From: a phage
DNA: 64,000 bases
Sequence record: PV467749.1
Direction: 5' to 3' (one strand)
Shown here: positions 3,064 through 56,374 of the stretch, piece after piece
Layout: every line of letters begins with the position of its first letter
How positions within the stretch are numbered: the stretch's first letter is position 1
Translations under genes and position numbers: made by a program
Notes under the pieces: model-generated
Told to the model about the DNA's origin: nothing
The model's input: the letters and a program-made list of their open reading frames with translations, nothing else
Database searches by the model: none

Positions 3064-3298
3064 TATCTCGTCTCCATATCTCGGTTCTAATGTGTTGACA
3101 TTGTGCTTCGATGAACATATCTATTGATTTGGCAATTGCGTTTTTATCTGTGCCAGTCATCAGTACAAGCATCTCGGCCTCACAGTGAAGTAAACGCATG
3201 ATATCATAGGGTAATATTCCAGATACCGTGTCATAGTGTTTCTGTGCCAGTGTCTGTAATAGTTTACAATACATTTTGTGATTTAGTCTGTGTCGCAT
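3047..3298 (-). CDS. Family A-like small protein (divergent, TGTDKN)
   Basis: Track ORF 83 aa; position and size fit the array, motif degenerate. Confidence 0.4.
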   Translation of the reverse strand: MRHRLNHKMYCKLLQTLAQKHYDTVSGILPYDIMRLLHCEAEMLVLMTGTDKNAIAKSIDMFIEAQCQHIRTEIWRRDNDNTK

Positions 3299-3558
3299 TG
3301 TTTATTCCATTCTTTTTTTTTGGCCTTGATGGTTTTATATTGGATTTGGTTTCTTAATGCTGATAAGTATCGTTGAATGAACAGATCTTGATAGTTTGTT
3401 CCAATGAATTTCATAAGATAAAGTTCACCGTTGATAACATCCACTTCAGGTGCACCATATAAGGCATTGTTTTTTCTAAGGGCATGGATTAAAGAGAATA
3501 GGGCAGTTTGATACTCAACTCCTGATAAAATCTTCATGTTTTGTGAGCAAATAATCAT
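3283..3558 (-). CDS. Family A small protein
   Basis: Track ORF 91 aa; IGTNYQDL. Confidence 0.5.
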   Translation of the reverse strand: MIICSQNMKILSGVEYQTALFSLIHALRKNNALYGAPEVDVINGELYLMKFIGTNYQDLFIQRYLSALRNQIQYKTIKAKKKEWNKQCDTD

Positions 3559-3772
3559 CTAGTTTATCCTGTATAACATTCGTTAATTGTTCGATATATT
3601 CTGTGCAAAACTTATCTTGATATTGAGTCCCCATAAAGTACAGCAACCATAGCTCATTAACTTTAGCTCGCATTTGGTTCCATGTAAGGCTGGGGTCATC
3701 GTAGACTATCCTTGCTATAGGGGTTAGTTTACGGACTATAGTTTCATATTCATCTAGTGTTAAGTGTTTCAT
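3515..3772 (-). CDS. Family A small protein
   Basis: Track ORF 85 aa; MGTQYQDK. Confidence 0.5.
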   Translation of the reverse strand: MKHLTLDEYETIVRKLTPIARIVYDDPSLTWNQMRAKVNELWLLYFMGTQYQDKFCTEYIEQLTNVIQDKLDDYLLTKHEDFIRS

Positions 3773-3987
3773 TTACATTTGTCCCTTATTAGATCAGTGA
3801 GGGCAACTATGTGTGCAACAACATACTCTTCCTGAAAGTTCGTCCCCAGTACAGCCATCATGCGTATATCGGTGGTGTTTATCCTGTGTTCCCTTACACA
3901 TAAACCTTCTGTGTGAGGAAGTGTAAAATATTTGTTTATTGCAGCAACGATAATTTTATTCTTCTCGGAGTTACTTAAATGTTTCAT
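3769..3987 (-). CDS. Family A small protein
   Basis: Track ORF 72 aa; LGTNFQEE. Confidence 0.5.
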   Translation of the reverse strand: MKHLSNSEKNKIIVAAINKYFTLPHTEGLCVREHRINTTDIRMMAVLGTNFQEEYVVAHIVALTDLIRDKCK

Positions 3988-4196
3988 AGTTTACTCCTGA
4001 TATAATTCTGAAGTGCAATTAAGTATTCCCCTACATAATACACCTGAAAGTCTGTATCAAGGAATGCACCCATAAGTAAATCTTTTTCTAATACCCTTGA
4101 TAAGTTAAGGTCTGCATTTGAAAGGTATATAAGTAAGATTTCACCCTGTGCGGAATTGAAACGTTTCTTATATTCTTCTGGTGTTAAAAAAATCAT
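3984..4196 (-). CDS. Family A small protein
   Basis: Track ORF 70 aa; LDTDFQVY. Confidence 0.5.
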   Translation of the reverse strand: MIFLTPEEYKKRFNSAQGEILLIYLSNADLNLSRVLEKDLLMGAFLDTDFQVYYVGEYLIALQNYIRSKL

Positions 4197-4408
4197 AATT
4201 TGCTCCTGATATATTTCTCAAGAGATGACAAATACTTTTCCTCATAATACTTCTGATAGTCTGTTCCTAAGAATGCACCCAAAAGTATTTCATTTTCCAA
4301 TACCTCGGCTAAGTTTAAATCAGAAGTCTCTTCGTATATTATGAGGATTTCAAGTTGTCTGGCAGCGATGCGTTCAGTATATTGATATGAGTTTTCTATA
4401 ATAATCAT
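4193..4408 (-). CDS. Family A small protein
   Basis: Track ORF 71 aa; LGTDYQKY; close paralog of the 3984 copy. Confidence 0.5.
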   Translation of the reverse strand: MIIIENSYQYTERIAARQLEILIIYEETSDLNLAEVLENEILLGAFLGTDYQKYYEEKYLSSLEKYIRSKL

Positions 4409-4614
4409 AATTTACTCTTTATATCTTGAATTAAAAATCGAATCCATTCTTCAACATAATCTTCCTGATGGTTTGTGTTCAGTACAGCCAACATGCGGAT
4501 CTCTGCTCTTGCAACTTCAATTTCAGTTTTAGGAAGGTCTTTGCTGATATCCACCATTAAGTCCATGTATTTCAAGATAAGACCGTATGATTGGGTTCGT
4601 GTTATAGTTTTCAT
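4405..4614 (-). CDS. Family A small protein
   Basis: Track ORF 69 aa; LNTNHQED. Confidence 0.5.
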   Translation of the reverse strand: MKTITRTQSYGLILKYMDLMVDISKDLPKTEIEVARAEIRMLAVLNTNHQEDYVEEWIRFLIQDIKSKL

Positions 4615-4811
4615 TGTTTCCTCGTGGACAATATTTTATTTTTCAATGTATCCATATATTGAATCACCCATCTTTCCTGATAGTTAGTTCCCAAAGTAAT
4701 CAAAAGGTATAACTCCATTCGTTCTACGTGTGTGTCTGTATTATAAATCTTTGTGAAGTTTTTACGTAACAGTTCTTGATAATCTTCTTTATTTAAAATA
4801 CGCATTTTCAT
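4611..4811 (-). CDS. Family A small protein
   Basis: Track ORF 66 aa; LGTNYQER. Confidence 0.5.
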   Translation of the reverse strand: MKMRILNKEDYQELLRKNFTKIYNTDTHVERMELYLLITLGTNYQERWVIQYMDTLKNKILSTRKQ

Positions 4812-5005
4812 AGTCTACCTTTTATGTCCCTTCGTAATTCTTGTAAGTATAGTTCGATATACTTTTCTTGATAGTTAGTTCCTATGAAAAGTTTCATAAC
4901 CAATTCACGCTTATATGCAATACCACGGATATGTGACATATGTAGGATATATGCCATGTTGGATATGAGTGTGTGGTTGTGCTCTTCTTGAGTTAAAATA
5001 CGCAT
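4808..5005 (-). CDS. Family A small protein (first gene of array)
   Basis: Track ORF 65 aa; IGTNYQEK; preceded on minus strand by TTGACT-N16-TATATT and GGAG RBS (~5012-5075). Confidence 0.5.
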   Translation of the reverse strand: MRILTQEEHNHTLISNMAYILHMSHIRGIAYKRELVMKLFIGTNYQEKYIELYLQELRRDIKGRL

Positions 5006-5034
5006 AGGGACTCCATTAAAAATAATATCAATCC

Positions 5035-5075
5035 AATAATATACGATTCATATAAAAAGTCAATAACATTTTATA
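5035..5075 (-). promoter_or_regulatory. Candidate sigma70-like promoter driving the family A array
   Basis: Minus strand reads TTGACT-16nt-TATATT then GGAG and the ATG at 5005. Confidence 0.4.
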
Positions 5076-5254
5076 AGTAATACCCCTTTATCGAAGTCGC
5101 TAAGGTTACCCGCCCTTTAGCCCCCTACGCATTTTGCCATAGTCCAATCCCTTTTTATTCATAAAAGTCAAGGGATTACCTATGCATTTTTTTAACGCTG
5201 AAGTTTAAAAATGCCTTGACTTTTTTATGATTCAGTACTAAATCCTTTTACGCA

Positions 5255-5934: not shown

Positions 5935-6023
5935 GATAAAACTCCTTAATTTAGGAGGGAGAACCATTTCCCCCTCTCTATGTAAAACATTATACATGAA
6001 TCTAAGTACTATGCAAGTACTTT

Positions 6024-6356
6024 TTACATTTTGATACCTGGATTCAGGTAGCGGTGAGATCCATACTCTGGATCGGTTTCGGTCCAGTACTGTAAATCGA
6101 TAGTACCTTTCGCGTTAATCTTGTCTACCAGCTTATTCATCTTAGCGTATACTACATCAGCATCGATGCGTTTAAAGCCAGTGGCTTTAGTGAAGTAGTA
6201 GTGATTTGCTTCACTATCATTCAGGATGTACCGAGAACCGTTTGCCGTTTGTGCGATAATGATTGAGTATTCTACGTTACGGTCGAGGCCGTCGATGAAT
6301 ACAGAGGAAACATTAGTACGGATGAATGCTTTAACGATAGCGATTGAAGTAGTCAT
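6024..6356 (-). CDS. Hypothetical protein
   Basis: Track ORF 110 aa. Confidence 0.5.
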   Translation of the reverse strand: MTTSIAIVKAFIRTNVSSVFIDGLDRNVEYSIIIAQTANGSRYILNDSEANHYYFTKATGFKRIDADVVYAKMNKLVDKINAKGTIDLQYWTETDPEYGSHRYLNPGIKM

Positions 6357-6557
6357 TTTGAATCTCCTAACTTTGTGGGCCGTCGCACCATTGCCGCCCT
6401 ACGAGATACATTATCGCAGTACTGATATACTTTGTCAATACTTTTTTATTAATAGTTTTCACCCCACCAGCAGATAGTTACTCACCGTTATTAACTATAT
6501 ATTTTGGATACACCTATGCACCCTGTGGGCTAGTTTTTGTCTATGCGTATATAATAG

Positions 6558-6590
6558 CAAAGGGACTGACCGGAGTCAATCCCTTTTTTT
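6558..6590 (-). terminator. Rho-independent terminator (UCCG loop) with embedded -35
   Basis: AAAGGGACTGAC-CGGA-GTCAATCCC flanked by A-run and T-run; on minus the stem carries TTGACT followed by TATTAT. Confidence 0.55.
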
Positions 6591-6601
6591 ATTCTTTTTT
6601 G

Positions 6602-6802
6602 TTAGATGATTCTCCAATCATCAACGATCATGGTAAGATACCGAACCAGTGATTCGAGTGATTCGTGTTCTCGATAGTCTGCCGCTCCACCAGCGGTACA
6701 AGTACAGCCGATTAAGCCGTTTTGTAGTTCCTGGATCTTTACGTCGATCTGGTTGGCTTTAGCTTCTTTCAGTACTGCAACCAGGGCGATAGCGATAGAC
6801 AT
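6602..6802 (-). CDS. Hypothetical protein
   Basis: Track ORF 66 aa; upstream promoter/leader hairpin module. Confidence 0.45.
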   Translation of the reverse strand: MSIAIALVAVLKEAKANQIDVKIQELQNGLIGCTCTAGGAADYREHESLESLVRYLTMIVDDWRII

Positions 6803-6892
6803 AATGTTTTACTCCAAACTATTGGCGGGAGAACTATTCCCCCGCTCTATGTAAAACATTATACATTACTGGTTAGTACTGTCAAATAGTTT

Positions 6893-7150
6893 TTATGAAA
6901 TATCTTCGATGTAGTCGGCCCATTTCATTTTTTCAGTACTGTCAATGGCGACCGGATTATTTGGATCAAACCATTCACCATCACCGCAATACATACCCAC
7001 GGCTACGGTTTTATAGCCATCCTGGGCAGTACACCACGACATTGCACGATAGATATGGCCTTTAACTGGTTGCAGTACTGGTAACGTTTTATGGTCTTCT
7101 ACGTAGGCCATAGCTTGTGGATTTACCCGATATTGTGTGAACTGATCCAT
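6893..7150 (-). CDS. Hypothetical protein
   Basis: Track ORF 85 aa. Confidence 0.5.
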   Translation of the reverse strand: MDQFTQYRVNPQAMAYVEDHKTLPVLQPVKGHIYRAMSWCTAQDGYKTVAVGMYCGDGEWFDPNNPVAIDSTEKMKWADYIEDIS

Positions 7151-7226
7151 TATGTTTCCCCTTGTAGTTAGTAAAGTTATTACATCAGTACTATCAAGCT
7201 ATGTCAATAGTACTGAAATAAAACTT

Positions 7227-7451
7227 TTAGATTAGATTATTGAGGCCGTCAATGGTAGACTCACCTTCTTCTTTCTCCCATTGTCGGTAGTACTTCCATG
7301 CTTCATGATAGGTGGCGATTAGTTCATCTTTTTGATCCTGGTTACATGCCAGTACTGAATCACGGTGAGCGGTGTTATAGATAGAATCGAATGATTTCTT
7401 CTCTTCTGCCAGGTTAGCTACTTCCCGCATCAGTTCATCAAAGTTAGCCAT
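7227..7451 (-). CDS. Hypothetical protein
   Basis: Track ORF 74 aa; AAGGAG RBS; promoter TTGCAT-17-TATAAT plus leader hairpin at 7470-7526. Confidence 0.55.
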   Translation of the reverse strand: MANFDELMREVANLAEEKKSFDSIYNTAHRDSVLACNQDQKDELIATYHEAWKYYRQWEKEEGESTIDGLNNLI

Positions 7452-7469
7452 TTTATTACTCCTTTTAGT

Positions 7470-7526
7470 GGGGGAGGATATCTCCCCCTATGCAAAACAT
7501 TATACTTTGTTTTAGTTATTATGCAA
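7470..7526 (-). promoter_or_regulatory. Early-type promoter plus 5' leader hairpin (representative of ~30 copies)
   Basis: Minus strand: TTGCAT-17nt-TATAAT, gttttgcata, hairpin GGGGGAG/CTCCCCC, then AAGGAG RBS. Confidence 0.6.
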
Positions 7527-7782
7527 GTACTTTTTTCATATAAACATTAAATTCTACACCGCCGTAACCTTCCACGATGATATGTTTTGCGTTATCACGT
7601 TTGCACATAGTGAAACCGTTGTTGATGTGTTCTGAATTTTCCAGGGCGACATCACCGATAGCGGCACATACAGCACTAATAACAGTATTCCGCAAAGTAC
7701 TGGTATCATTGGCGGTCATAGTAGTTTGCAGTACTACGTTGTCGTATACGTGTGCATTGATAGTGATTTCGATAGTGTTCAT
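7519..7782 (-). CDS. Hypothetical protein
   Basis: Track ORF trimmed to MNTIEITINA; promoter/leader module at 7801-7862. Confidence 0.5.
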   Translation of the reverse strand: MNTIEITINAHVYDNVVLQTTMTANDTSTLRNTVISAVCAAIGDVALENSEHINNGFTMCKRDNAKHIIVEGYGGVEFNVYMKKVLA

Positions 7783-7800
7783 GTTGTATCTCCTGGACTT

Positions 7801-7862
7801 GAGGGGAAACCATTTCCCCCTCTCGATATAAAACATTATACGTTAATCTAACTACAATGCAA
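7801..7862 (-). promoter_or_regulatory. Early-type promoter plus 5' leader hairpin
   Basis: Minus strand: TTGCAT-16nt-TATAAT then hairpin GAGGGG/CCCCTC; plus-strand signature gatataaaacattatacg. Confidence 0.6.
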
Positions 7863-7869
7863 GTACTTT

Positions 7870-8061
7870 TTAAATTTTATTTCCGATATAGTCCGGCATG
7901 TTCTTTTCAGTCATACGCTTTGCTAATGTCTGCATATGGCTTATAGCGTTCAAGGTGTCTTCCTCCAGGGATGAATCGAGATAATCAGGATCATTCTTCA
8001 CCTTGCAATGATTATGATAGCGTAGTACTGCCAGTACTTTTTTAACTTCTTCAACTGTCAT
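7870..8061 (-). CDS. Hypothetical protein
   Basis: Track ORF 63 aa. Confidence 0.45.
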   Translation of the reverse strand: MTVEEVKKVLAVLRYHNHCKVKNDPDYLDSSLEEDTLNAISHMQTLAKRMTEKNMPDYIGNKI

Positions 8062-8330
8062 AATAAGTACTCCACTTCGTTAGCTTTCAGGTTAGTATCA
8101 ATCATCAATGGTTTTTTGTAGTTCACAAAACGATTAGTTTTTTCGATAGCAAATCCCATATAATCCAGCTTACTAACAGTACATTCATTCTTAAAAACTT
8201 CTTTCGCTGCATCGATGGCTGATTGCATGGATAACCGACCATCTAAATTAATGTTTCCAAATGATCCACCAGCAGAAGTAGGATTACCGTTCATATCTTT
8301 AATGATCATAGTAGCGGAGTAGCTGGACAT
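8058..8330 (-). CDS. Hypothetical protein
   Basis: Track ORF 90 aa; start overlaps stop of 7870..8061 gene. Confidence 0.5.
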   Translation of the reverse strand: MSSYSATMIIKDMNGNPTSAGGSFGNINLDGRLSMQSAIDAAKEVFKNECTVSKLDYMGFAIEKTNRFVNYKKPLMIDTNLKANEVEYLL

Positions 8331-8417
8331 AATTTTGTTTCCTTTTATTGGTGGGGAGAACTATTCTCCCCTTGATGTAAACTATTATACAGTACTGATA
8401 TACTTTGTCAAATACTT

Positions 8418-8825
8418 TTATTCGCCCATATAGATTAGATTATCATCGCCTACATAGGGATCGCAAACGTTGATTTCTTCGCAGTACTTAGTGAATATAT
8501 CATCATAGTGACCGATATCACGATCCCAAAAACCAGTGCCGTGACCTTCGCGAGTAAGAAAGAGATCATGACCTGCATGACTATAAGTATAATCAGGATT
8601 ATGGTGTTTTTGTACTGTTTCCATATCTTCACCATGTACAGCAAGGAAACGTGAACATGCAATCACTGCCGCTTGATGGGCTTGCTCTGATAATTCATAA
8701 TCTTCCAGGTATTCGCCGTTCTCATTGTGTACTGTACTGAATTGCATAGCTTCAATGTAACCAGCGACCATTGCAGCATGATTTTTATCGTTGGCGATGG
8801 ACCGAGCTTGATTAGTAGTAGTCAT
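8418..8825 (-). CDS. Hypothetical protein (His/Asp-rich)
   Basis: Track ORF 135 aa. Confidence 0.5.
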   Translation of the reverse strand: MTTTNQARSIANDKNHAAMVAGYIEAMQFSTVHNENGEYLEDYELSEQAHQAAVIACSRFLAVHGEDMETVQKHHNPDYTYSHAGHDLFLTREGHGTGFWDRDIGHYDDIFTKYCEEINVCDPYVGDDNLIYMGE

Positions 8826-8908
8826 GATTTTATTCCTTTTAGTATCGGGGAGAACTATTCTCCCCTTGATGTAAACTATTATACAGTACTGGTATACTTT
8901 GTCAATAC

Positions 8909-18963: not shown

Positions 18964-18994
18964 ACACAAAAAAGCCCACCGTTTAAGGTGGGCT
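18964..18994 (-). terminator. Rho-independent terminator, 3' of 19016..19498
   Basis: Minus: AGCCCACC-ttaaac-GGTGGGCT followed by TTTTTTGTGTTT. Confidence 0.7.
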
Positions 18995-19015
18995 AGTGAT
19001 TCAGTACTTTAATTG

Positions 19016-19498
19016 TTATGCTTCAACTTTGCGATGAGCTTCGATCCATTCCTCGCGAGTCATACCACTGGAGTTAATCGCGTCCAGTACTACCGCAATA
19101 CAGTTACCACGCACCGGAATCAGATATTCTTCCCCGTTGTCCAGTACTACCGCTACGCGTTCCTGAATCCATTTTTTGGCTTTTACTTCTGGCTTGTCTT
19201 CCCCATACTTAACCGCCAGGGCTTTTTGTGCCATCTCTGTAACTACTTCCAGATCCAATCCAACTACTGCCGCCTGAATACTTTCGATTGTTGCTTGTAG
19301 TTCTGCTTCACGGGCCGCCTTTGCCGCTTCAATTTCTGCCGCTTTATTTGCTTGTAGTTCTTTCGCAGTACTGTACGCGATGTTAAAATTATTGCGTACC
19401 GCTTTCATGGTATCGTTATCCAGTTCAGCCAGGATCTCAGCCGCTACGTTAGTTTCATTTGCTACCAGTGCTTTGATGAATGATTTTACATTAGCCAT
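19016..19498 (-). CDS. Hypothetical protein (Ala/Glu-rich helical N-half)
   Basis: Track ORF trimmed to MANVKSF; terminators flank both ends. Confidence 0.55.
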   Translation of the reverse strand: MANVKSFIKALVANETNVAAEILAELDNDTMKAVRNNFNIAYSTAKELQANKAAEIEAAKAAREAELQATIESIQAAVVGLDLEVVTEMAQKALAVKYGEDKPEVKAKKWIQERVAVVLDNGEEYLIPVRGNCIAVVLDAINSSGMTREEWIEAHRKVEA

Positions 19499-19699
19499 TT
19501 TATAAATCCTCAATTAAAGTTTAGTTTACGTTTATTAGTGTATCAAAGTTTTCTCGACGTGTCCAGTTTTTCGTTCGACTTACTGGCGGTCTACTTAGTG
19601 CTCCCCGTCTTGATGTAATACATTCTACGCTTTTCTGCGGTAATGTCAACTACTTTCTTAAAACTATTTTCAAAGTATCTCAGTACTACGATACTACAA

Positions 19700-19726
19700 A
19701 AACAAAAAAGCCCACCAGGTGGGCTA
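19700..19726 (-). terminator. Rho-independent terminator, 3' of 19732..19962
   Basis: Minus: GCCCAC-ctg-GTGGGC followed by TTTTTTGTTTTT. Confidence 0.65.
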
Positions 19727-19731
19727 TGTAC

Positions 19732-19962
19732 TTAATCAGTGAGTAAAATATTAAACACTTTACCATTTAACGTTATTGGTGCACTGCTACCAGGCTCAAG
19801 ATCCGTTAATATACCTGCAATCGCTTTATCATTGGCGACCTTTCCAGTGTCCAACAGTACTACAGTACTGATAAGATTAACGCTCGTTTCAATATCATAA
19901 TGCACGGCGTTAAGTAGTTGTGTAGTACTGCTTTCGTTAAGTAAAACAATTCGCTTAGTCAT
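19732..19962 (-). CDS. Hypothetical protein
   Basis: Track ORF 76 aa; terminator immediately 3' at 19700-19726. Confidence 0.5.
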   Translation of the reverse strand: MTKRIVLLNESSTTQLLNAVHYDIETSVNLISTVVLLDTGKVANDKAIAGILTDLEPGSSAPITLNGKVFNILLTD

Positions 19963-19983
19963 GATGTTACCCCGTAGTATCTA

Positions 19984-20283
19984 TCAACGGCAATTAATAA
20001 CGCCGGTATGCGTTACTTTCTCAGTATCCATTACAGTGACCGAACCGCGTTTAGTACTGGCATCATAATAAATTGTTGTGCTACCGTTTTCGTCTTCTTC
20101 ATGGAACGGGCCGTTTTTAAATGCTTCCGGCTGGATCTCTAAATCCTTTAATACAATCTCGCCAGTACTTTCATCGGTCATTGCAACAGTGCACTGAATG
20201 AATTTTTCACTACTTACATCTAATGACGCATTAACAGCGAAAGAGGAAACAGATAAAGCCAGGGCGATGATTGTAATTTTCAT
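19984..20283 (-). CDS. Secreted/periplasmic protein candidate
   Basis: Trimmed to MKITIIALALSVSSFAVNA, a signal-peptide-like N-terminus. Confidence 0.5.
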   Translation of the reverse strand: MKITIIALALSVSSFAVNASLDVSSEKFIQCTVAMTDESTGEIVLKDLEIQPEAFKNGPFHEEDENGSTTIYYDASTKRGSVTVMDTEKVTHTGVINCR

Positions 20284-20389
20284 TTGATTATCCTTAGTTA
20301 CCAGGGGAACCGCTCCCCTATGCAAAACATTATACGCGTTTAAAAACTAATTGCAAGTATTTTAATAAAAAGTATTTGAAAAATAATTG

Positions 20390-20418
20390 TTGACAACTGC
20401 ATCCAGTACTGGCATAAT
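20390..20418 (+). promoter_or_regulatory. Plus-strand early-type promoter opposing flanking genes
   Basis: TTGACA-17nt-CATAAT then tactacatcaagacg; downstream CCCACCGGGTGC and a hairpin with U-rich tail at ~20498-20532. Confidence 0.5.
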
Positions 20419-20524
20419 TACTACATCAAGACGAAACAGTCACTAACCCACCGGGTGCCGAGATCCGTCTATTAAATGATTCAGTACTGAAAAAGTAACG
20501 GGGAGTTATTATCTCCCCGCGTTG

Positions 20525-20746
20525 TTATTTTGTAAGGTATAAACAGAAGTCGCCTTTATTTGCTACGCCGCCAGTGTAACGCGATGAATAGTTAGAAACG
20601 TCCTGGACTTCTGCTATTACCAGGGTATCATCATTCAATTCGTCGCAGAAGCAAACGGCTGGATCTTGTACGCCGATTTTGTCGGCATGTTCCCGCATAG
20701 ATTTAACCAGTGCTTCCAGTTGGGAAAGAGTAGTGATATTAGCCAT
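20525..20746 (-). CDS. Hypothetical protein
   Basis: Track ORF trimmed to MANITTLSQ. Confidence 0.5.
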   Translation of the reverse strand: MANITTLSQLEALVKSMREHADKIGVQDPAVCFCDELNDDTLVIAEVQDVSNYSSRYTGGVANKGDFCLYLTK

Positions 20747-20832
20747 TTTATTTTCCTCATTACCAGGGAGAACCATTTCTCCCTTTGATGTAAACCATTA
20801 TACAGTACTGAAAACTAATTGCAAGTACTTTT

Positions 20833-21093
20833 TCAATATTGTTTGTCGTCGTCTTCCTCGATGAATTGACCGACGAAATGATCTACTTTCGCTTTGAGGC
20901 TTTTATAATCTTCTTCTACTTCCTTTAAACGTTCCTGGTAGTATTCCAATGCTTCAAGATACGCCGCCTCAGCAGTTTTTGCACGCATGGCTAAATTCAT
21001 GCCACGCGTTTCATCAAATAGCCAATAACCATCGGTGCACTGGCTAATAGATAATGTCTTGCTTAGTGCTGTATAGCTAATTACTTTACTCAT
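20833..21093 (-). CDS. Hypothetical protein
   Basis: Track ORF 86 aa. Confidence 0.5.
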   Translation of the reverse strand: MSKVISYTALSKTLSISQCTDGYWLFDETRGMNLAMRAKTAEAAYLEALEYYQERLKEVEEDYKSLKAKVDHFVGQFIEEDDDKQY

Positions 21094-21150
21094 TAGATAA
21101 CCCTCAGTAAAGGCGGGAACTATTACCCGCCATTATCTCAGTACTGAATA

Positions 21151-21390
21151 TTACATTCCAACCATTGCAGCACGGATCGCAGTAGTGCTATATTTGAATC
21201 CGTCCGGCGTTGTAGTAGTACCGTTGGCTTTTAATCTGCGGTACATACATTCCGCAGCAATATCTTTAGTTCTACTTTGTGCGATGCAACTTTGTGCAAG
21301 CCGATACAATGACTCACCGTTATTAATCCAAAGGCTTACATTCCAATGAGTTTTGTTTTTGTGTCCGTTGTAAGTTTTAGTACTAGCCAT
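21151..21390 (-). CDS. Hypothetical protein (paralog of 23196..23435)
   Basis: Shares KNKTHWNVSLWINN...PDGFKYSTTAIRAAMVGM. Confidence 0.55.
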   Translation of the reverse strand: MASTKTYNGHKNKTHWNVSLWINNGESLYRLAQSCIAQSRTKDIAAECMYRRLKANGTTTTPDGFKYSTTAIRAAMVGM

Positions 21391-21480
21391 TTTTAAATCC
21401 TCGTTTGAGCGGGGAACCACTCCCCGCCTTGATGTAAAGTATTATACGCTTTTAAACTTAGTTTACAAGTACTTTTTAAA

Positions 21481-22092
21481 TTAATATTCGATTGATTCCA
21501 CTACGCCATCAATAACATTGAATTGATATTCGTTACCCTCAATCAGTGCAGTAATGTTTTCAGTAGTGAATTGATCCTCATATGCATTCTCTAAATCACG
21601 GTACAACTTACGAGATAATTCACGGATCGCATCAGTCAGTAAGTTTTCCAGGTCATCAGCAAGTGCCGCTTGTTTTACAGTTAAATCAGTGTAGCGAGTA
21701 TCAACGCAACCGCTTACCGTGTTTTCGTGTGCGTAGCGAGAGTGTGAACGTTCTACACTCATTGCCAAATCATCTTCATTCAACAAGTGACGGATTGAAC
21801 GATATTTCGTTAACGCCTTAACCTTGCGTAAAAACTTCTCAGCGTCAACGTGGTTAGTACTGATTGATGCACCGTCACCTTGCGACCAAAAACCACTGTA
21901 TTGCAATTCAGCTTCATCTATGCCGTATTCTGGTAGTACTGTTTCTTTATAGTACTCGATAACGCCCTCAGCAAAGAAATTATCCTCACATGAACGCTCA
22001 CGATCCCGAACCAGTTCGATAGCCGCCGTTTTTTGTTCTGCGTTCAGTTCAGAAAAAGCCATAACAAAAGTAGTAGTAGTGATAGTTTTCAT
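21481..22092 (-). CDS. Hypothetical acidic protein
   Basis: Track ORF 203 aa; contains GFWSQGDGASI; family not recognised. Confidence 0.55.
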   Translation of the reverse strand: MKTITTTTFVMAFSELNAEQKTAAIELVRDRERSCEDNFFAEGVIEYYKETVLPEYGIDEAELQYSGFWSQGDGASISTNHVDAEKFLRKVKALTKYRSIRHLLNEDDLAMSVERSHSRYAHENTVSGCVDTRYTDLTVKQAALADDLENLLTDAIRELSRKLYRDLENAYEDQFTTENITALIEGNEYQFNVIDGVVESIEY

Positions 22093-22316
22093 TTTGTAAC
22101 CCTCATTCAGTAGTTGATGTAAGTATTATACGCTTTTAAAAACATTTGTCAAACTATTTTATCAGGGGAGTTTTTCGTGTGCCTTACTCCTGGGCTACTT
22201 AACGGGAAGTTACTTATTTCGTTCCCCGTCCTGATGTAAAACATTATACGCTTATTGAGATAGTTTGCAAGTACTTTTTAAAAATAGTTTTCAGTACTGA
22301 ATAGTAAAAAAAAGTA

Positions 22317-22345
22317 TTGACAGCATTATCAAGTACTGGCATAAT
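22317..22345 (+). promoter_or_regulatory. Plus-strand early-type promoter
   Basis: TTGACA-17nt-CATAAT; transcript would contain CCCACCGGGTGC and downstream GCACCCTATGGG inverted partner. Confidence 0.5.
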
Positions 22346-22522
22346 ATACCCCATGACAACAGCTAACCCACCGGGTGCACAATTGTAACTATACTAAACT
22401 AATTTTTCTATAGATACACTCCCGCACCCTATGGGCTACGGCTTATCTGCCAATGAATACATTATGCCAGTACTGACAAAATAAGTCAATACCGGCAATT
22501 GTAAATTTTTCAAAAAATATGA

Positions 22523-22753
22523 TTATACTGCAATCGCGTCCAGGCTGTAATAATAATAAGTGCCGTATTGGTGTACTTTATTACCTTTTATTTCAGTACT
22601 GAATGAATCCGAACGATTTGCATATGATGTTAATTTAAAGTACTTTGATTTGCTGATACGTTGCCATACACCACAGATCCGCTGTAAGTAAGTAGTTTTA
22701 TTCGTGGTCGTATCTTTTACGGTTTTAACTTCAGTCATATACATATTAGTCAT
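22523..22753 (-). CDS. Hypothetical protein
   Basis: Track ORF 76 aa. Confidence 0.45.
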   Translation of the reverse strand: MTNMYMTEVKTVKDTTTNKTTYLQRICGVWQRISKSKYFKLTSYANRSDSFSTEIKGNKVHQYGTYYYYSLDAIAV

Positions 22754-22840
22754 TTTTATTACTCCAGGTTATAGGCGGGAAGAGTTCCCGCTCTCGATGT
22801 AAAACATTATACGCCTTTAAACATAGTTTGCAAGTACTTT

Positions 22841-23107
22841 TTATTCAAGTACTGCAATCTTTTTAGTACGGTACACGGTCACGCGGTTGCCCTTTCGGTC
22901 GAGCTTTATTTCTACCACTCGACGCGATACACTATCGGGACTTTTTAAGGCCGCTAACCAGTACTGTAATGATCTGGCGGTACTACGCTTTACAATGGCC
23001 CAACGTTTACCACGTTCCGATTGTACGCCCATATCTTTAAACGTTGCCCCGTCCTGGCGTGCGGCGATCCGAGCTTGTTCACGCGTCGCAAAATACTTAA
23101 TATTCAT
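22841..23107 (-). CDS. Hypothetical protein (paralog of 10859..11263)
   Basis: Trimmed to MNIKYFATREQARIAARQDGATFKDMG. Confidence 0.55.
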   Translation of the reverse strand: MNIKYFATREQARIAARQDGATFKDMGVQSERGKRWAIVKRSTARSLQYWLAALKSPDSVSRRVVEIKLDRKGNRVTVYRTKKIAVLE

Positions 23108-23195
23108 GCTGTTGCCCTTATCGTTGGTGTATGAATAAAACACTATTATAAAGTACTATCCCCGTGCAATAGTACTTTAAATAAATTCTATTCTA

Positions 23196-23435
23196 TTACA
23201 TTCCAACCATTGCCGCACGGATCGCAGTAGTGCTATATTTGAATCCGTCCGGTGTTTTATCTTGTCCAGTCTGTTCTAAAAATAACATCATATGACGGGC
23301 CGCATCATTGCGATTAGTGCTATCGTTAATAAAGTCCTGGGCCAACCGGTATAATGATTCATCGTTATTAATCCAAAGGCTTACATTCCAATGAGTTTTG
23401 TTTTTGTGACCTAAGAACATTTTTGATTTAGCCAT
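23196..23435 (-). CDS. Hypothetical protein (paralog of 21151..21390)
   Basis: Trimmed to MAKSKMFLGHKNKTHWN. Confidence 0.55.
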   Translation of the reverse strand: MAKSKMFLGHKNKTHWNVSLWINNDESLYRLAQDFINDSTNRNDAARHMMLFLEQTGQDKTPDGFKYSTTAIRAAMVGM

Positions 23436-23528
23436 TTTTTTAATCCTCTTATATAGTGGGGAACTATTCCCCACCTGATGTAAAACATTATACGCTTTTA
23501 AACTTAGTTTGCAAGTACTTTATTAAAC

Positions 23529-23891
23529 TTATTTGTAAATTTTGCCACTTTCTACCCATACCAGGAAACGAGGCATATTATCCCATGCATCTTGCTTTAA
23601 GTTTAAGCCGTGCAATTCCTCAGTTGTTGCCATGCCTGGGACTGGTTTACTATACACCGAGAATTTTTCGCCCATGTACTGATAAACCATCGTCAAATCA
23701 CTGGCGATCATCTTATGGATCATCGCATCAAGCATCACGGTCGCGGCGTATTGTTCACGCTTAAGCGGCAGCATTTTAATCAGTTCGCGGTATGCGTCAA
23801 TGTGAGTTTTAACCGTTGCCGCCGGAAGATCTTTCATCTCGTCGCGGAAGTTAACCAGGTTAGCAATAATTTTGGTGATTTGAGTCGCCAT
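23529..23891 (-). CDS. Hypothetical protein
   Basis: Track ORF trimmed to MATQITKIIA behind RBS. Confidence 0.5.
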   Translation of the reverse strand: MATQITKIIANLVNFRDEMKDLPAATVKTHIDAYRELIKMLPLKREQYAATVMLDAMIHKMIASDLTMVYQYMGEKFSVYSKPVPGMATTEELHGLNLKQDAWDNMPRFLVWVESGKIYK

Positions 23892-24199
23892 CGTTTTAAT
23901 CTCTCTTAAAAGTGAGTTAGGAGCGTTTCCCCCGTCTCGATGTAAAACATTATACGCCTTTAAACATAGTTTACAAGTACTTTCTACAAATACTTTTAAA
24001 ATAGTTTTCTTTCTATATAGGGAAACTATCATTCAGTACTGAATCAACCAAATCACTACTACACCCCGTAAAACGGCCTCAATCGCATTCTAACGCATTA
24101 TTACACCTAAGCTATACATTTGCACCATTCTAATCATTCCAGTGCGTTACGGGCCGTTTAAACGCGTTAAATTATTTTCAATTATTTTGTTTTTAGGTA

Positions 24200-24227
24200 T
24201 TGACTCAGTACTAAAAAAGCGTATAAT
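24200..24227 (+). promoter_or_regulatory. Plus-strand early-type promoter in ORF-free region
   Basis: TTGACT-16nt-TATAAT then tactacatagacgcgagaaag. Confidence 0.5.
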
Positions 24228-24415
24228 TACTACATAGACGCGAGAAAGCGGATACCCCAGGGGGTGCGGAATTGTGCCCAAAATTCAAGATATAAAAAAA
24301 GGATACACTCCCGCACCCTAGCAGGTAAACGCACTTTCTCAGTACTGAAATATAGTACCATAGTCCGGCCCAGGATAGCAAGCAAATTAATTAAAACTTT
24401 TTTGCTTCCAGGGTA

Positions 24416-24443
24416 TTGCTTTATTTTTTCAGTACTGTATAAT
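24416..24443 (+). promoter_or_regulatory. Plus-strand promoter candidate
   Basis: TTGCTT-16nt-TATAAT then agttccatcaagtcgagaaag and CCCACCGGGTGC. Confidence 0.45.
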
Positions 24444-24540
24444 AGTTCCATCAAGTCGAGAAAGACTCAAGCCCACCGGGTGCATAGTTACGCCCAAAAT
24501 TCAGTACTGAAAAAATTTTTAAAAATATCCGTCCAGGTCG

Positions 24541-24569
24541 TTGACATTGCCCCCAGTTTATAAGATAAT
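24541..24569 (+). promoter_or_regulatory. Plus-strand promoter candidate
   Basis: TTGACA-17nt-GATAAT. Confidence 0.4.
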
Positions 24570-24666
24570 GATTCCAGATTCAGAAAAATCTAACACCAGA
24601 TACTGCGGGGAAACTATCCCCACGCGGTAGGGGAACTATTGGAAAAAACAAAATAAAATTTTGATT

Positions 24667-24794
24667 TAGCCGTCTATACTTCCAGACGTGTAACCATCTA
24701 GCCGTTTAGCCGTCCAAACGTCTAGCCATCCAGCCATCCAGAAATCTAGCCGTTTAGCCGTCTAGATGGATAGCCATCTTTACTTCCAGACTTC
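24667..24794. repeat. Tandem degenerate 8-bp repeat array (consensus TAGCCRTC, ~16 units)
   Basis: Strict 8-bp phase: tagccgtc tatacttc cagacgtg taaccatc tagccgtt tagccgtc caaacgtc tagccatc cagccatc cagaaatc tagccgtt tagccgtc tagatgga tagccatc ... Confidence 0.6.
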
Positions 24795-25875
24795 TGGAGG
24801 GCTAGACATATCTACGCCCAAAATCCATCCAGGGTAACTACACCCAAAATCCGTCAGTACTATACCATAGATCTATCTTTTGAAAGGGAGTATTCAGTAC
24901 TGCCATCATAGCCCTCACTATGTTACCCTAGGAGGATGAAGACTATCATGTAGTACTGAATACTGTTAGAGGGAATCCACCAGCTTGTGCTGGTGGCATA
25001 ATGCTTTAGATTAAAATCAGTACTGACACCATTCTGTTAATATCAGTACTGTTATTACGATTTTCATATGAGGTTCAAAAAGATGTACCACCACAGGAGG
25101 AACTATCTTTTCTGTACTGTCTCACGACAGGAGGTAGAGTAAATGAATTGTTCGCAGCAACTCATCTCTCTATGTAGAACATTATACAGTACTGAATCAT
25201 AATGTCAATAGCTTTCTTTCATTATTCAGTACTGATATTCTTGAGAACTACCCGACTACAAACATCATTATATCCCACAAATCATAAACGTCCCAACGTA
25301 AATTTCAACTTTCGAAGAACCAACTTTTATTTCATAGGTACTCCAAAATTTTTAGGATCGAGATTTAGGATGGAGTACTAACCAACTTTTTGCTGGAGCC
25401 TCAAGGGGTAATTGAATTTTACCCCGAAGGGTAAAAGGGTAATTGAAATTAAGGTGAAAGTAATAATTCAGTACTAATCATTGCGTGATTACTTTTGATT
25501 ACATTTGATGTAATTTGCAAAATGGAAAAGGAGCTTGGAAACTACAAAGTACGGCAGACTTCCTCTGCCTACTTAGTGACATATCGACACCTTCAGTACT
25601 GAATACTTTTAGGGCAGTACTGAATCCTTCCCTAGCATTCTTGAGTAATCTTGTCTATAATAATCAGTACTGAATCATATATAATCATTCTGTGATTCTA
25701 CGGTGCTCATATAAATGTTTATATATGATTACTTATGACTACATATGATTACGGGGTTTAGCCTGGGGAGAATCCTAGTGATCGCATTTGTCCAGGCTGA
25801 ATTTTAACAATTCTTCTAATTGTTAAAGCCTGTCCAATGCTTTCCCTGCGGAGCTTCCCCTGTCTATATGTTGAA

Positions 25876-26082
25876 TTACTTCCTATATATAAGCATTAAC
25901 ATATAGTAGTACTGATTATGCTGTACATTCTCTTTAATATTATAAGGGTCTATAGCAATCTCGGTACATCTGTTAAATGCATATCTATTAAATGCCAGTA
26001 CTATTATAGATCTAATCCATGCTTGGTCAGTCGGTGGTAGTTTACTTATATAGTACTCTTTATAGTTTTTTATGTTCTGCAT
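25876..26082 (-). CDS. Family B small protein
   Basis: Track ORF 68 aa; N-terminal EYY/EFY and hydrophobic C-terminus LMLIYRK. Confidence 0.45.
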   Translation of the reverse strand: MQNIKNYKEYYISKLPPTDQAWIRSIIVLAFNRYAFNRCTEIAIDPYNIKENVQHNQYYYMLMLIYRK

Positions 26083-26093
26083 AGTATACCTTA

Positions 26094-56299: not shown

Positions 56300-56374
56300 G
56301 ACAATTCCTCGATTGTGGGATGAGAAGTTCATCCCCTTGATAAACATTATACAGTACTGAATGAGTTTGTCAAC

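What the first reader, a model, noticed from the sequence alone, without database searches (positions are those of the whole stretch)
5940..23960. About 30 copies of an early promoter followed by a 5' leader hairpin with compensatory stem changes
Nearly every small minus-strand gene between 5 and 24 kb is preceded by TTGCA(T/A)-N16/17-TATAAT, a conserved gttttacatc(g/a)agag segment, a GC-rich hairpin and an RBS. Hairpin sequences differ between copies but stay complementary (GGGGAGAA/TTCTCCCC, GGGGGAAA/TTTCCCCC, GGCGGGA/TCCCGCC, GGGGATGA/TCATCCCC), which indicates selection on structure. The hairpin would sit within a few nt of the transcript 5' end, consistent with mRNA stabilisation or a processing/regulatory site. 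The modules resemble the promoter-early stem-loop cassettes reported for T4-type phages, though here the hairpin lies downstream of the -10.
Basis: partly seen in the sequence, partly recalled or inferred. Interest (0 to 1): 0.65.

Follow-up and report, generated by a model that had tools for sequence, protein, structure and literature searches.

The report
Early promoter cassettes with leader hairpins
A jumbo E. coli phage drives about half of the small early genes in its 21-kb terminal repeat from one repeated cassette (strong host-type promoter, short GC hairpin at the start of the mRNA, ribosome site); this is a relative of the "promoter-early stem-loop" cassettes of T4-type phages rather than a new kind of element.

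Summary
The window is an Asteriusvirus-type jumbo coliphage (95-97% identical to G17, fEgEco12, PBECO4). The flagged region is its roughly 21-kb direct terminal repeat.

- **Copies:** I found 24 canonical modules plus 1 degenerate one at 5.9-24 kb, and one more at 56.3 kb.
- **Layout:** A-rich run + AGTAC, TTGCAA/TTGACA, N16, TATAAT, N5-CAT, a 7-9-bp G-run/C-run hairpin starting 11-15 nt (mostly 13) after the -10, an AU-rich stretch, SD, ATG.
- **Chance:** The promoter+CAT pattern gives 29 hits against 0.02 expected, all on the minus strand.
- **Structure:** The two arms covary (arm-swap z = -14.6). G·U outnumbers A·C 19:3 on the sense strand. Loops vary freely.
- **Not terminators:** No leader hairpin is followed by a U-tract.
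- **Distribution:** The architecture recurs in distant jumbo phages and in an rV5-like phage.
- **Recombination:** Gene gains and losses between relatives have junctions inside the modules.

The closest known kind is the PeSL cassette of RB49/phi1, where the hairpin sits inside the promoter spacer; here it is transcribed. The hairpin's function is not established. An RNA-level cis role is my best guess, but about 5 predicted unpaired 5' nt fits a classical 5' stabiliser poorly. "Nearly every gene" is overstated: about half of roughly 51 genes carry the module.

The parts
23892..23976 (-). Module with degenerate hairpin; first gene inward from the terminal noncoding region
   Evidence: TTGTAA-N16-TATAAT, CAT A at 23941, weak hairpin 23933-23919 GGGGG/CTCCT, ATG 23891
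23436..23514 (-). Promoter + leader hairpin module
   Evidence: TTGCAA-N16-TATAAT; hairpin 23475-23455 GGTGGGGAA tag TTCCCCACT; ATG 23435
22754..22833 (-). Promoter + leader hairpin module
   Evidence: hairpin 22791-22775 GCGGGAA ctc TTCCCGC; ATG 22753
21391..21468 (-). Promoter + leader hairpin module
   Evidence: hairpin 21428-21408 GGCGGGGAG tgg TTCCCCGCT (2 G.U); ATG 21390
20747..20824 (-). Promoter + leader hairpin module
   Evidence: hairpin 20784-20765 AGGGAGAA atgg TTCTCCCT; ATG 20746
20284..20356 (-). Promoter + leader hairpin module (short gCATA type)
   Evidence: hairpin 20320-20302 TAGGGGAG cgg TTCCCCTG; ATG 20283
18731..18813 (-). Promoter + leader hairpin module
   Evidence: hairpin 18773-18752 GAGGGGGAA acgg TTCTCCTTC (2 G.U); ATG 18730
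18418..18494 (-). Promoter + leader hairpin module
   Evidence: hairpin 18454-18435 GGGGAGAA atgg TTCTCCCC; ATG 18417
16903..16981 (-). Promoter + leader hairpin module
   Evidence: hairpin 16941-16922 GGGGAGAA atga TTCTCCCC; ATG 16902
16675..16752 (-). Promoter + leader hairpin module
   Evidence: hairpin 16712-16693 GGGGAGAA atga TTCTCCCC; ATG 16674
16086..16165 (-). Promoter + leader hairpin module; flanks a gene present only in this phage
   Evidence: hairpin 16123-16107 GGGGAAA cgg TTTCCCC; ATG 16085; indel junction with a 92-103 nt overlap
15536..15614 (-). Promoter + leader hairpin module; other flank of the same indel
   Evidence: hairpin 15573-15555 AGGGGAAA cgg TTTCCCCT; ATG 15535
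15098..15179 (-). Promoter + leader hairpin module
   Evidence: TTGACA-N16-TATAAT; hairpin 15139-15120 GGGGAGAA aaac TTCTCCCC; ATG 15097
13514..13588 (-). Promoter + leader hairpin module (N17, TATAGT)
   Evidence: hairpin 13549-13531 AGGGGAA acatc TTCCCCT; ATG 13513
13240..13316 (-). Promoter + leader hairpin module
   Evidence: TGGACA-N16-TATAAT; hairpin 13276-13257 GGGGAGAA atga TTCTCCCC; ATG 13239; indel junction
12940..13018 (-). Promoter + leader hairpin module
   Evidence: hairpin 12977-12961 AGGGGAA tag TTCCCCT; ATG 12939
11944..12026 (-). Promoter + leader hairpin module
   Evidence: hairpin 11986-11967 GAGGGGGA atgg TTCCCCTC; ATG 11943
11674..11757 (-). Promoter + leader hairpin module
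   Evidence: hairpin 11715-11697 GAGGGGAA tgg TTCCCCTC; ATG 11673
9131..9213 (-). Promoter + leader hairpin module
   Evidence: hairpin 9172-9153 AGGGGGAA atgg TTCTCCCT; ATG 9130
8826..8905 (-). Promoter + leader hairpin module; flanks a gene absent from PBECO4
   Evidence: hairpin 8865-8847 GGGGAGAA tag TTCTCCCC; ATG 8825; junction overlap 99 nt
8331..8411 (-). Promoter + leader hairpin module; other flank of that indel
   Evidence: hairpin 8371-8353 GGGGAGAA tag TTCTCCCC; ATG 8330
7783..7862 (-). Promoter + leader hairpin module
   Evidence: hairpin 7822-7801 GAGGGGGAA atgg TTTCCCCTC; ATG 7782
7452..7526 (-). Promoter + leader hairpin module (short gCATA type, 5-nt loop)
   Evidence: hairpin 7488-7470 GGGGGAG atatc CTCCCCC; ATG 7451
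6803..6885 (-). Promoter + leader hairpin module
   Evidence: hairpin 6845-6825 GCGGGGGAA tag TTCTCCCGC; ATG 6802
5935..6016 (-). Promoter + leader hairpin module
   Evidence: hairpin 5976-5955 GAGGGGGAA atgg TTCTCCCTC; ATG 5934; identical hairpin in Munch, fENko-Kae01 and Hallingskeid
56300..56373 (-). Outlying module outside the terminal repeat
   Evidence: TTGACA-N16-TATAAT; hairpin 56335-56317 GGGATGA acttc TCATCCC; ATG 56299

Best explanation
These are portable early-gene expression cassettes of the PeSL (promoter-early stem-loop) type, sitting in the roughly 21-kb direct terminal repeat of an Asteriusvirus-type jumbo coliphage.

**Layout.** Each cassette of about 80-100 bp holds an A-rich upstream run, a near-consensus host sigma-70 promoter, a conserved CAT start motif, a 7-9-bp G-run/C-run hairpin, an AU-rich stretch and a Shine-Dalgarno sequence ahead of a small ORFan.

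**What is shown.**
- The repeat and its fixed geometry.
- Covariation between the two hairpin arms.
- A strand-specific tolerance for G.U pairs.
- The absence of a U-tract after the hairpins.
- Conservation of the layout across genera.
- Recombination junctions inside the cassettes.

**What is inferred.**
- Transcription starts at the A of CAT, so the hairpin forms in the mRNA about 3-6 nt from its 5' end, and also inside read-through transcripts from upstream genes.
- It acts in cis as a sequence-independent structural element that sets the fate of the mRNA. It could partly hinder 5'-end-dependent decay. In polycistronic read-through RNA it could mark a stable boundary: a 3' exonuclease barrier for the upstream cistron, or a processing landmark next to the AU-rich stretch.
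- The repeated cassettes also provide the homology through which early genes are gained, lost and exchanged, including with rV5-like phages.
For: **Identity and context**
- 95-97% identity to G17, fEgEco12, WPEC3 and others.
- The fEgEco12 direct terminal repeat is 20,993 bp with experimentally verified ends (PMC13070987; locus).

**Repeat and geometry**
-.
- The excess of strong promoters is confined to the minus strand.

**RNA-level structure**
- Arm-swap permutation z = -14.6. Internal G.U pairs 19 against A.C 3. The sense strand folds more stably than the antisense in 22 hairpins, equally in 27, and less stably in 5 of 54.
- Identical stems occur with 3-5 different loops.
- On the covariance-model alignment of 148 copies, cells changed on both sides number 35 against 18.9 +/- 3.3 in shuffles.
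- In all 12 leaders folded, the MFE structure equals the centroid: a single 5'-proximal hairpin with SD and AUG unpaired.

**Not a terminator**
- None of the leader hairpins appears in the terminator scan or has a T-run. Separate canonical terminators exist in the same array.

**Conservation**
- The same layout occurs in EJP2, fENko-Kae01, Munch, Hallingskeid and the Vequintavirinae phage A73. In A73 it also occurs behind different -10 boxes and with different stems.

**Recombination**
- 20 of 31 unique indel breakpoints against three relatives fall in promoter modules, which cover 25% of the region.
- Several junctions show 43-103 nt of the same module aligned on both flanks.

**PeSL definition and comparison**
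-, with direct inspection of RB49.
Against: - No transcription start site, half-life or processing data exist for these phages, so the 5' position of the hairpin rests on the CAT motif and the standard -10-to-start spacing.
- With that start, a median of 5 nt stay unpaired. That is more than I recall classical 5' stabilisers tolerating (about 2-4 nt; recalled, not checked here). Published RNase E substrates with 4 unpaired nt before a stem are cut rapidly when the downstream single-stranded stretch is long. A plain stem-loop is a negligible obstacle to RNase E scanning.
- In silico, deleting the hairpin does not change SD accessibility (0.72 against 0.69).
- About 13 promoters of the same array lack the hairpin. 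Some orthologous copies have decayed (L002 9407 and 17282 against L005), so it is not essential.
- Compensatory differences between copies may partly reflect swapping of whole hairpins by recombination rather than paired point mutations.
- The G.U excess could be inflated by transcription-associated C-to-T bias on the non-template strand.
Confidence: 0.5

Rival explanations
1. The hairpin is a recognition handle for a trans-acting factor, a phage-encoded or host RNA-binding protein or nuclease. That factor would coordinately control the roughly 25 early mRNAs, for example by shutting them off or cleaving them at the early-to-middle switch, or by marking them as phage RNA while host RNA is degraded.
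For: - One structural tag sits on about half of the early genes and is rare outside the terminal repeat (one copy elsewhere in the window).
- The 5' flank CAUC(A/G)A and the G-C base with A-U top of the stem (GAA...TTC) are nearly invariant.
- The exact hairpin GAGGGGGAA-atgg-TTCTCCCTC, including its G.U pair, is identical in phages that share only about 29% ANI (ANI from PMC13070987).
- The array encodes a Ser/Thr kinase and a DksA-like protein, typical host-takeover functions.
Against: - Loops are unconstrained: at least 19 different loops occur, several on the same stem. Stem sequences also change. This rules out loop-specific recognition and leaves only shape recognition.
- No candidate binding protein was identified.
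- Promoters without the hairpin sit in the same array.
Confidence: 0.2
2. The hairpin works as PeSL stem-loops were proposed to work. It would be a transcription attenuator or terminator that limits read-through from upstream cassettes and so insulates each gene transcriptionally.
For: - In RB49/phi1 a PeSL stem-loop inserted between a strong promoter and lacZ reduced expression.
- The same stem type is used in a true terminator of this array (GGCGGGA...TCCCGCC followed by TTTTTT at 10836-10818).
Against: - None of 25 leader hairpins is followed by a U-tract. The tails are ACUAA, CCUAA, GAUAC and similar.
- Because the hairpin lies downstream of the start, it would equally stop transcripts from its own promoter.
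- The array has separate canonical terminators and terminator-embedded promoters where termination is evidently wanted.
- In RB49 the stem-loop sits in the promoter spacer, where it can act only on read-through RNA. That logic is lost here.
Confidence: 0.1
3. The inverted repeat acts at the DNA level. It could be a target for a recombination or repair protein that mobilises cassettes, or an operator or roadblock at +6 to +27 for a repressor of early transcription.
For: - Indel junctions fall in the modules.
- The position just downstream of the start would suit a roadblock.
Against: - The arms covary with each other rather than each holding to a consensus half-site. The spacing between arms varies from 3 to 5 nt. 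G.T is tolerated but A.C is not (19:3), which is a single-strand, sense-strand signature.
- Homologous recombination needs only the 80-100 bp of shared sequence, not a hairpin.
Confidence: 0.1
4. The hairpin has no present function. It would be a relic, for example of a terminator that lost its U-tract, copied along with a successful promoter cassette as that cassette spread by duplication and recombination.
For: - It is dispensable at about 13 promoters, and the hairpin-less leaders look like the same leader with the hairpin cleanly missing.
- Some copies are decaying (23976; L002 copies).
- Much of the similarity between copies can be explained by recent duplication.
Against: - Pairing is kept in 54 distinct sequence variants.
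- The layout is kept across genera and in an rV5-like phage behind different promoters with unrelated stems. This is hard to reconcile with neutral drift in AT-rich phage genomes.
Confidence: 0.1

Closest known systems
PeSL (promoter-early stem-loop) cassettes of T4-type phages RB49 and phi1 (Arbiol et al. 2010, PMC2839356)
   Same: - Repeated intergenic cassettes of about 100 bp with the same order of parts: AT-rich upstream region, sigma-70 consensus promoter, a 7-8-bp polyG/polyC stem-loop with G.T pairs allowed, a CAT-type start, SD and ATG.
- They sit in front of small ORFans in a hyperplastic region.
- Gene insertions and deletions between close relatives have junctions within the cassettes.
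- The window also holds PeSL-like composites with the hairpin over the -35 (GGGATTGACTccggTCAGTCCC-tttgc-TATTAT at 6586, 9343, 12608, 16294).
   Different: - In the RB49 copies inspected, the stem-loop fills the -35/-10 spacer and is not part of the cassette's own transcript. Here it always lies 9-15 nt after the -10 and is transcribed.
- Here it has no U-rich tail.
- There is no detectable sequence homology to T4-type phages (no such hit).
- The host lineage differs (Asteriusvirus and relatives, Vequintavirinae).
- The cassettes are concentrated in a direct terminal repeat.
5'-terminal stabilising stem-loops of E. coli and phage mRNAs (ompA, papA, T7 gene 10 leader; from my own knowledge, with references listed in PMC3997798)
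   Same: - A stable hairpin near the 5' end whose sequence does not matter, followed by an unstructured AU-rich ribosome-binding region.
- The T7 gene 10 leader (GGGAGA...UUUCCC) even resembles it in composition.
   Different: - As I recall (not checked here), classical stabilisers need the stem within about 0-4 nt of the 5' end. Here the predicted median is 5 unpaired nt.
- The start site is unmapped, and no stability data exist.
Intrinsic (Rho-independent) terminators
   Same: GC-rich stems of similar length and composition. One true terminator in the array uses the same stem family (10836-10818).
   Different: No U-tract follows any leader hairpin, and the hairpins are located downstream of a promoter, not after a gene.

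Membership tests
PeSL cassette (Arbiol et al. 2010) | [quoted passage not shown] | tested here: met
   29 matches against 0.02 expected, and 11 perfect 12/12 promoters on the minus strand. An A-rich run precedes the -35.
PeSL cassette (Arbiol et al. 2010) | Adjacent stable stem-loop, typically polyG followed by polyC, G.T pairs allowed | tested here: met
   Stems of 7-9 bp such as GGGGAGAA/TTCTCCCC, with MFE of -9 to -16 kcal/mol.
PeSL cassette (Arbiol et al. 2010) | Stem-loop position relative to the promoter: five subclasses, most commonly between -35 and -10 or over the -10; one subclass downstream of the -10 | tested here: met
   All 25 copies belong to the downstream subclass, at +9 to +16 after the -10. 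The RB49 copies inspected are the spacer type. The definition is met, but the distribution is different.
PeSL cassette (Arbiol et al. 2010) | Stem-loop acts as a terminator or attenuator of upstream transcription | tested here: not met
   Only the sequence signature could be tested. No U-tract follows any leader hairpin, and none is called by the terminator scan. Activity itself is not testable here.
PeSL cassette (Arbiol et al. 2010) | Concentrated in hyperplastic regions rich in ORFans | tested here: met
   The terminal repeat holds about 51-56 small genes, nearly all annotated as hypothetical, with variable gene content among relatives.
PeSL cassette (Arbiol et al. 2010) | Insertions, deletions and replacements between close relatives are bounded by the cassettes (recombination between them) | tested here: met
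   20 of 31 unique breakpoints fall in modules covering 25% of the region, with overlaps of 43-103 nt at junctions. Caveat: any viable breakpoint must be intergenic.
PeSL cassette (Arbiol et al. 2010) | Formation of cassette mini-circles during infection | not testable with these tools
   Needs inverse PCR on infected cells.
PeSL cassette (Arbiol et al. 2010) | Sequence homology to the RB49/phi1 elements, or occurrence in T4-type phages | tested here: not met
   A blastn search with a module found Asteriusvirus, related jumbo phages and Vequintavirinae, but no T4-type phage. The relationship is analogy or a shared design rather than demonstrable homology.
5'-terminal mRNA-stabilising stem-loop | Stem begins within about 0-4 nt of the transcript's 5' end | tested here: inconclusive
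   With the start at the A of CAT, 1-7 nt are unpaired (median 5; 3 in the gCATA type). The start site is not mapped.
5'-terminal mRNA-stabilising stem-loop | Effect depends on structure, not sequence | tested here: met
   Arms covary, and both loops and stems vary.
5'-terminal mRNA-stabilising stem-loop | Prolongs mRNA half-life | not testable with these tools
   Needs rifampicin-chase or reporter experiments.
Intrinsic terminator | GC-rich hairpin immediately followed by a U-tract | tested here: not met
   None of 25 qualifies.
Any curated RNA family (Rfam 15) | Match to a covariance model | tested here: not met
   Only two sub-threshold chance-level hits in 5000-26000, neither at a module.

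The most novel reading that the evidence does not exclude
The leader hairpin, together with its conserved CAUCRA 5' flank, is a shape-specific tag. A so far unidentified phage or host factor would read this tag to control a whole early regulon post-transcriptionally: coordinated shut-off, cleavage, or protection while host mRNA is destroyed. The system would be shared by Asteriusvirus-like jumbo phages and rV5-like phages and would spread with the cassettes.
Probability: 0.15. Interest if true: 0.7.

Novelty: new variant of a known kind. Interest (0 to 1): 0.45.

Why it matters
- **A compact rule for early genes.** These jumbo coliphages are being isolated in large numbers for therapy, yet their terminal repeats are annotated as about 50 hypothetical proteins with no regulatory features. 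The cassette gives a simple rule for finding their immediate-early transcription units and start codons.
- **Cassette shuffling beyond T4-type phages.** It shows that PeSL-like cassette shuffling is not confined to T4-type phages. It also points to gene traffic between jumbo phages and rV5-like phages.
- **An easy test system.** If the transcribed hairpin does alter mRNA fate, it is a natural, compact and highly replicated set of variants for asking how a stem a few nucleotides from the 5' end affects decay and processing in E. coli.
- **Practical use.** The cassettes are ready-made strong promoter plus leader parts.

Tried and rejected
- **Rfam scan of 5-26 kb:** nothing relevant. No tRNAs in the window.
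- **Alignment-based covariation:** On a covariance-model alignment of 148 copies the signal was only weak to moderate. G-runs and C-runs pair in several registers, so sliding by +2 still gives 93% paired. I replaced this with an alignment-free arm-swap test.
- **Latent anti-SD switch (3' arm released when the 5' arm is removed):** SD unpaired probability is 0.54 against 0.52 for shuffled 3' arms, so no specific effect.
- **Hairpin as RBS insulator in the monocistronic leader:** SD accessibility is 0.69 with the hairpin and 0.72 with it deleted.
- **Leader mini-ORF starting at an ATG in the loop:** only 9 of 25 loops contain ATG, and the spacing to the SD-like arm is too short.
- **Intrinsic terminator:** no U-tracts.
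- **Host or prophage origin:** no match in 5,426 complete E. coli genomes.
- **G-rich arm always 5' as a strand signal:** this is uninformative, because the reverse complement of a purine-arm-first palindrome reads the same. Only the G.U against A.C asymmetry carries strand information.
- **Literature:** papers on CBB, Sharanji, fEgEco12, rV5, PA5oct and N1M2 mention RpoD-like promoters at most. None describes the leader hairpin.

Full report
**What the window is.** The flagged region is 95-97% identical over 6.5 kb to Asteriusvirus-type jumbo coliphages such as WPEC3, fEgEco12, G17 and Sharanji.
- G17's record begins at about window position 5103.
- fEgEco12 has termini verified by PhageTerm and restriction mapping. 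It carries a 20,993-bp direct terminal repeat that starts with about 1.6 kb of noncoding DNA, followed by 56 small genes all pointing inward (PMC13070987).
- The finding therefore covers essentially the whole terminal repeat, about window 5100-26090, with genes on the minus strand.

**Checking the observation.**
- A strict promoter scan and an nhmmer profile built from 20 seed copies recover the same set of minus-strand sites.
- The composite pattern (TTG-type -35, N16, TATAAT, then RNWTTRYAT) has 29 matches against 0.02 expected from shuffles. All are on the minus strand between 5980 and 25208.
- The general promoter scan shows 11 perfect 12/12 promoters and about 30 more at 10-11/12, almost all on the minus strand.
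- Twenty-four promoters are followed by a canonical hairpin and one by a degenerate hairpin. A twenty-sixth module lies at 56373.
- The geometry is tight. The hairpin starts 9-15 nt after the -10 (mode 13), has 7-9 pairs and a 3-5 nt loop, and ends 17-23 nt before the ATG.
- The region holds about 51 ORFs (53-56 annotated in relatives). "Nearly every gene" is therefore too strong: about half have the full module.
- Another 13 or so have a near-consensus promoter without a hairpin. Three promoters drive a longer noncoding element.
One is at 56.3 kb and one is a true terminator at 10836-10818.

**Is the stem under selection, and at what level?**
- A covariance model built from the 25 window copies finds 148 copies in the window plus eight related loci. 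Every copy is on the gene-sense strand.
- Pair counts on that alignment exceed shuffles. Cells changed on both sides number 35 against 18.9 +/- 3.3, and the covariation score is 0.249 against 0.207 (0 of 500 shuffles in each case).
- The test is blunted because G-runs and C-runs pair in several registers.
- An alignment-free test is clearer. For 54 distinct hairpins, native 5' and 3' arm combinations fold at -12.62 kcal/mol on average. Permuted combinations fold at -9.21 +/- 0.23 (z = -14.6; 0 of 1000).
- Treating G.U and A.C symmetrically as internal transition mismatches gives 19 G.U and 3 A.C on the sense strand. The sense RNA is more stable than the antisense in 22 cases, equal in 27 and less stable in 5.
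- The same stem occurs with several loops. GGGGAGAA/TTCTCCCC, for example, occurs with atga, tag, aaac, cta and atgg.
- Together this points to a structure formed by the sense strand, most simply the RNA. The stem matters and the loop does not.
- Three caveats apply. Copies are related, whole hairpins can be swapped by recombination, and transcription-associated C-to-T bias could add to the G.U excess.

**What the hairpin is not.**
- None of the leader hairpins has a T-run, and none is called by the terminator scan.
- The array has its own canonical terminators (14643, 18994, 19725, 10836, 20520). It also has four terminator-embedded promoters.
- Of 30 strong minus-strand hairpins in the repeat, 17 are promoter-proximal leader hairpins at that stricter threshold and 6 are T-run terminators (one of them a promoter composite). 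Three more are terminator-promoter composites.
- Rfam has no matching family, and E. coli genomes contain no copy.

**Distribution.**
- A single module used as a blastn query hits 67 phage records. These include all Asteriusvirus genomes (10-30 places each), Salmonella phages Munch, 7t3 and SE_PL, Klebsiella phage fENko-Kae01, and Erwinia phage Hallingskeid. They also include several phages of about 140 kb, of which A73 is annotated as Vequintavirinae.
- Direct inspection confirms the promoter-CAT-hairpin-SD layout in these loci.
- Two flavours are seen. One is catcga-GAGGGGGAA-atgg-TTCTCCCTC. The other is gcata-GGGGGAA-aca(a/t)c-TTCCCCC.
- Further compensated variants include GGGGGTA/TATCCCC, GGGAAGAG/CTCTTCCC and GGGGCGGA/TTCGCCCC.
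- In A73 two modules and their downstream gene are near-identical to window copies. Other A73 promoters with TAAACT or TAAATT -10 boxes carry different GC hairpins at the same position.
- The layout is therefore conserved beyond simple shared ancestry of one sequence.

**Recombination.**
- I aligned the window repeat against fEgEco12, PBECO4 and G17. Of 31 unique indel breakpoints, 15 fall in hairpin modules (14% of the region) and 20 in any promoter module (25% of the region). Several others miss by only a few nucleotides.
- More telling are junctions where 43-103 nt of module sequence align on both sides.
  - Window gene 15618-16085 is absent from all three relatives, and the junction lies in modules 16165 and 15614.
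  - Gene 8418-8825 is absent from PBECO4 (modules 8905 and 8411).
  - The relatives carry extra genes at modules 20356, 23514, 14865, 13316 and 18813.
- This is the pattern described for PeSL-mediated modular shuffling.

**Comparison with PeSLs.**
- The PeSL paper defines cassettes by five features: a sigma-70-like promoter, an AT-rich upstream region, a polyG/polyC stem-loop (G.T pairs allowed), an SD and an ATG.
- The paper describes five positional subclasses, one of them downstream of the -10.
- It proposes the stem-loop as a terminator or attenuator and the cassettes as recombination substrates.
- I inspected RB49's ORF185-211 region directly. There the stem-loop fills the -35/-10 spacer (TTGACA-ggggatcaccgatcccc-TATACT), so it is present only in read-through RNA.
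- In the present phage the hairpin is uniformly in the cassette's own transcript and lacks a U-rich tail.
- No T4-type phage was hit by sequence.
- I therefore file this as a new variant of a known kind, not as a homologous member.

**How the hairpin may work.**
- The conserved CAT lies 6-8 nt after the -10. The standard preference for a purine start preceded by a pyrimidine, 7-8 nt after the -10, puts +1 at its A (inference from established promoter knowledge).
- The predicted leaders then fold as one 5'-proximal hairpin with SD and AUG open, leaving 1-7 unpaired 5' nt (median 5).
- That resembles known 5' stabilisers (ompA, papA, T7 gene 10; my own knowledge, with references listed). The fit is imperfect.
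  - Published RNase E substrates with four unpaired nucleotides ahead of a stem are cut rapidly when followed by a long single-stranded stretch.
  - A plain stem-loop is a negligible obstacle to RNase E scanning (PMC11194081).
- Two translation-centred ideas failed in silico.
  - Deleting the hairpin leaves SD accessibility unchanged.
  - The 3' arm is no better an anti-SD than shuffled controls.
- My best estimate is a sequence-independent cis-acting RNA element affecting mRNA fate. It may act partly at the 5' end. It may also act as a boundary in read-through transcripts, where each cistron would be bracketed by hairpins.
- Rivals are a shape-specific handle for a trans-acting factor, a PeSL-style attenuator, a DNA-level signal, and a neutral passenger. 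None can be excluded without experiments, and I give their weights in the report sections.

**Literature.** Papers on relatives (CBB, Sharanji, fEgEco12, rV5, PA5oct) mention RpoD-like promoters at most. None describes the leader hairpin. G17's annotated terminators are the T-run hairpins and terminator-promoter composites, not the leader hairpins.

**Verdict.** This is a real, highly non-random, conserved regulatory cassette. It is already anticipated in kind by PeSLs, apparently undescribed in this phage group, and has a transcribed hairpin of unproven function.

Noticed in passing
window 5234-64000 (none in 1-5233): The palindrome AGTACT occurs 274 times against 22.4 +/- 4.9 expected, in coding and noncoding DNA alike. 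One copy overlaps the -35 of the TTGCAA-class promoters (AGTACTTGCA). Another sits just before the -10 in the TTGACA class. It is completely absent from the paralogous gene array at 1-5100.
   Followed up: partly
window minus strand, after promoters with -35 at 22270, 12482 and 19649; also L003 5577 (A73) and L004 1919 (EJP2): A conserved noncoding element of about 80 nt follows the same promoter and CAT start, and is then followed by a second promoter. Its conserved blocks are ACAUCARGACGGGGA, AAGUAG, GUAAG and ACGAAAAC. No Rfam match. The consensus fold is weak, with only 2 compensated pairs in 5 sequences.
   Followed up: partly
window minus strand about 6478-6586, 9235-9343, 12500-12608, 16186-16294, 14493-14594, 22388-22489, 24295-24368; plus strand 24200-24295 and 24416-24511: Nine short promoter-driven noncoding units share an invariant GGGTGC core (CCCAYAGGGTGCRNRRRTGTATC). 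Four are launched from promoters embedded in a terminator hairpin (GGGATTGACTccggTCAGTCCC-tttgc-TATTAT), a PeSL-like composite. Similar units occur in Erwinia phage Hallingskeid (L006 7523, 12669). They are possibly small RNAs.
   Followed up: partly
window 1-5030, minus strand: A tandem array of about 23 back-to-back paralogous genes of 65-71 aa shares a G-T-N-Y-Q-E/D motif. The genes have overlapping stop and start codons and no individual promoters. The array lies just inside the terminal repeat boundary.
   Followed up: no
window about 24100-26090: The outermost roughly 1.6-2 kb of the terminal repeat is noncoding. It contains degenerate short repeats (GGCTAAACGGCTAGAT, TGGATGGCT) and several AGTACT-flanked blocks. 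It lies next to the physical genome end as defined in fEgEco12.
   Followed up: no
L003 5695-6100 (Escherichia phage A73, Vequintavirinae) against window 18400-18813: A 142-kb rV5-like phage shares two near-identical modules and the downstream small genes (MAIVITRV..., MKTCQCG...) with this jumbo phage. This implies recent exchange of early cassettes between unrelated phage groups.
   Followed up: partly
window 54200, 58822, 61864 (minus strand): Three more terminator-embedded promoters (aaaGGGTTGACTtcggtcaGCCCttttgc-TATAAT) lie outside the terminal repeat, each followed by catcaa and a gene.
   Followed up: no
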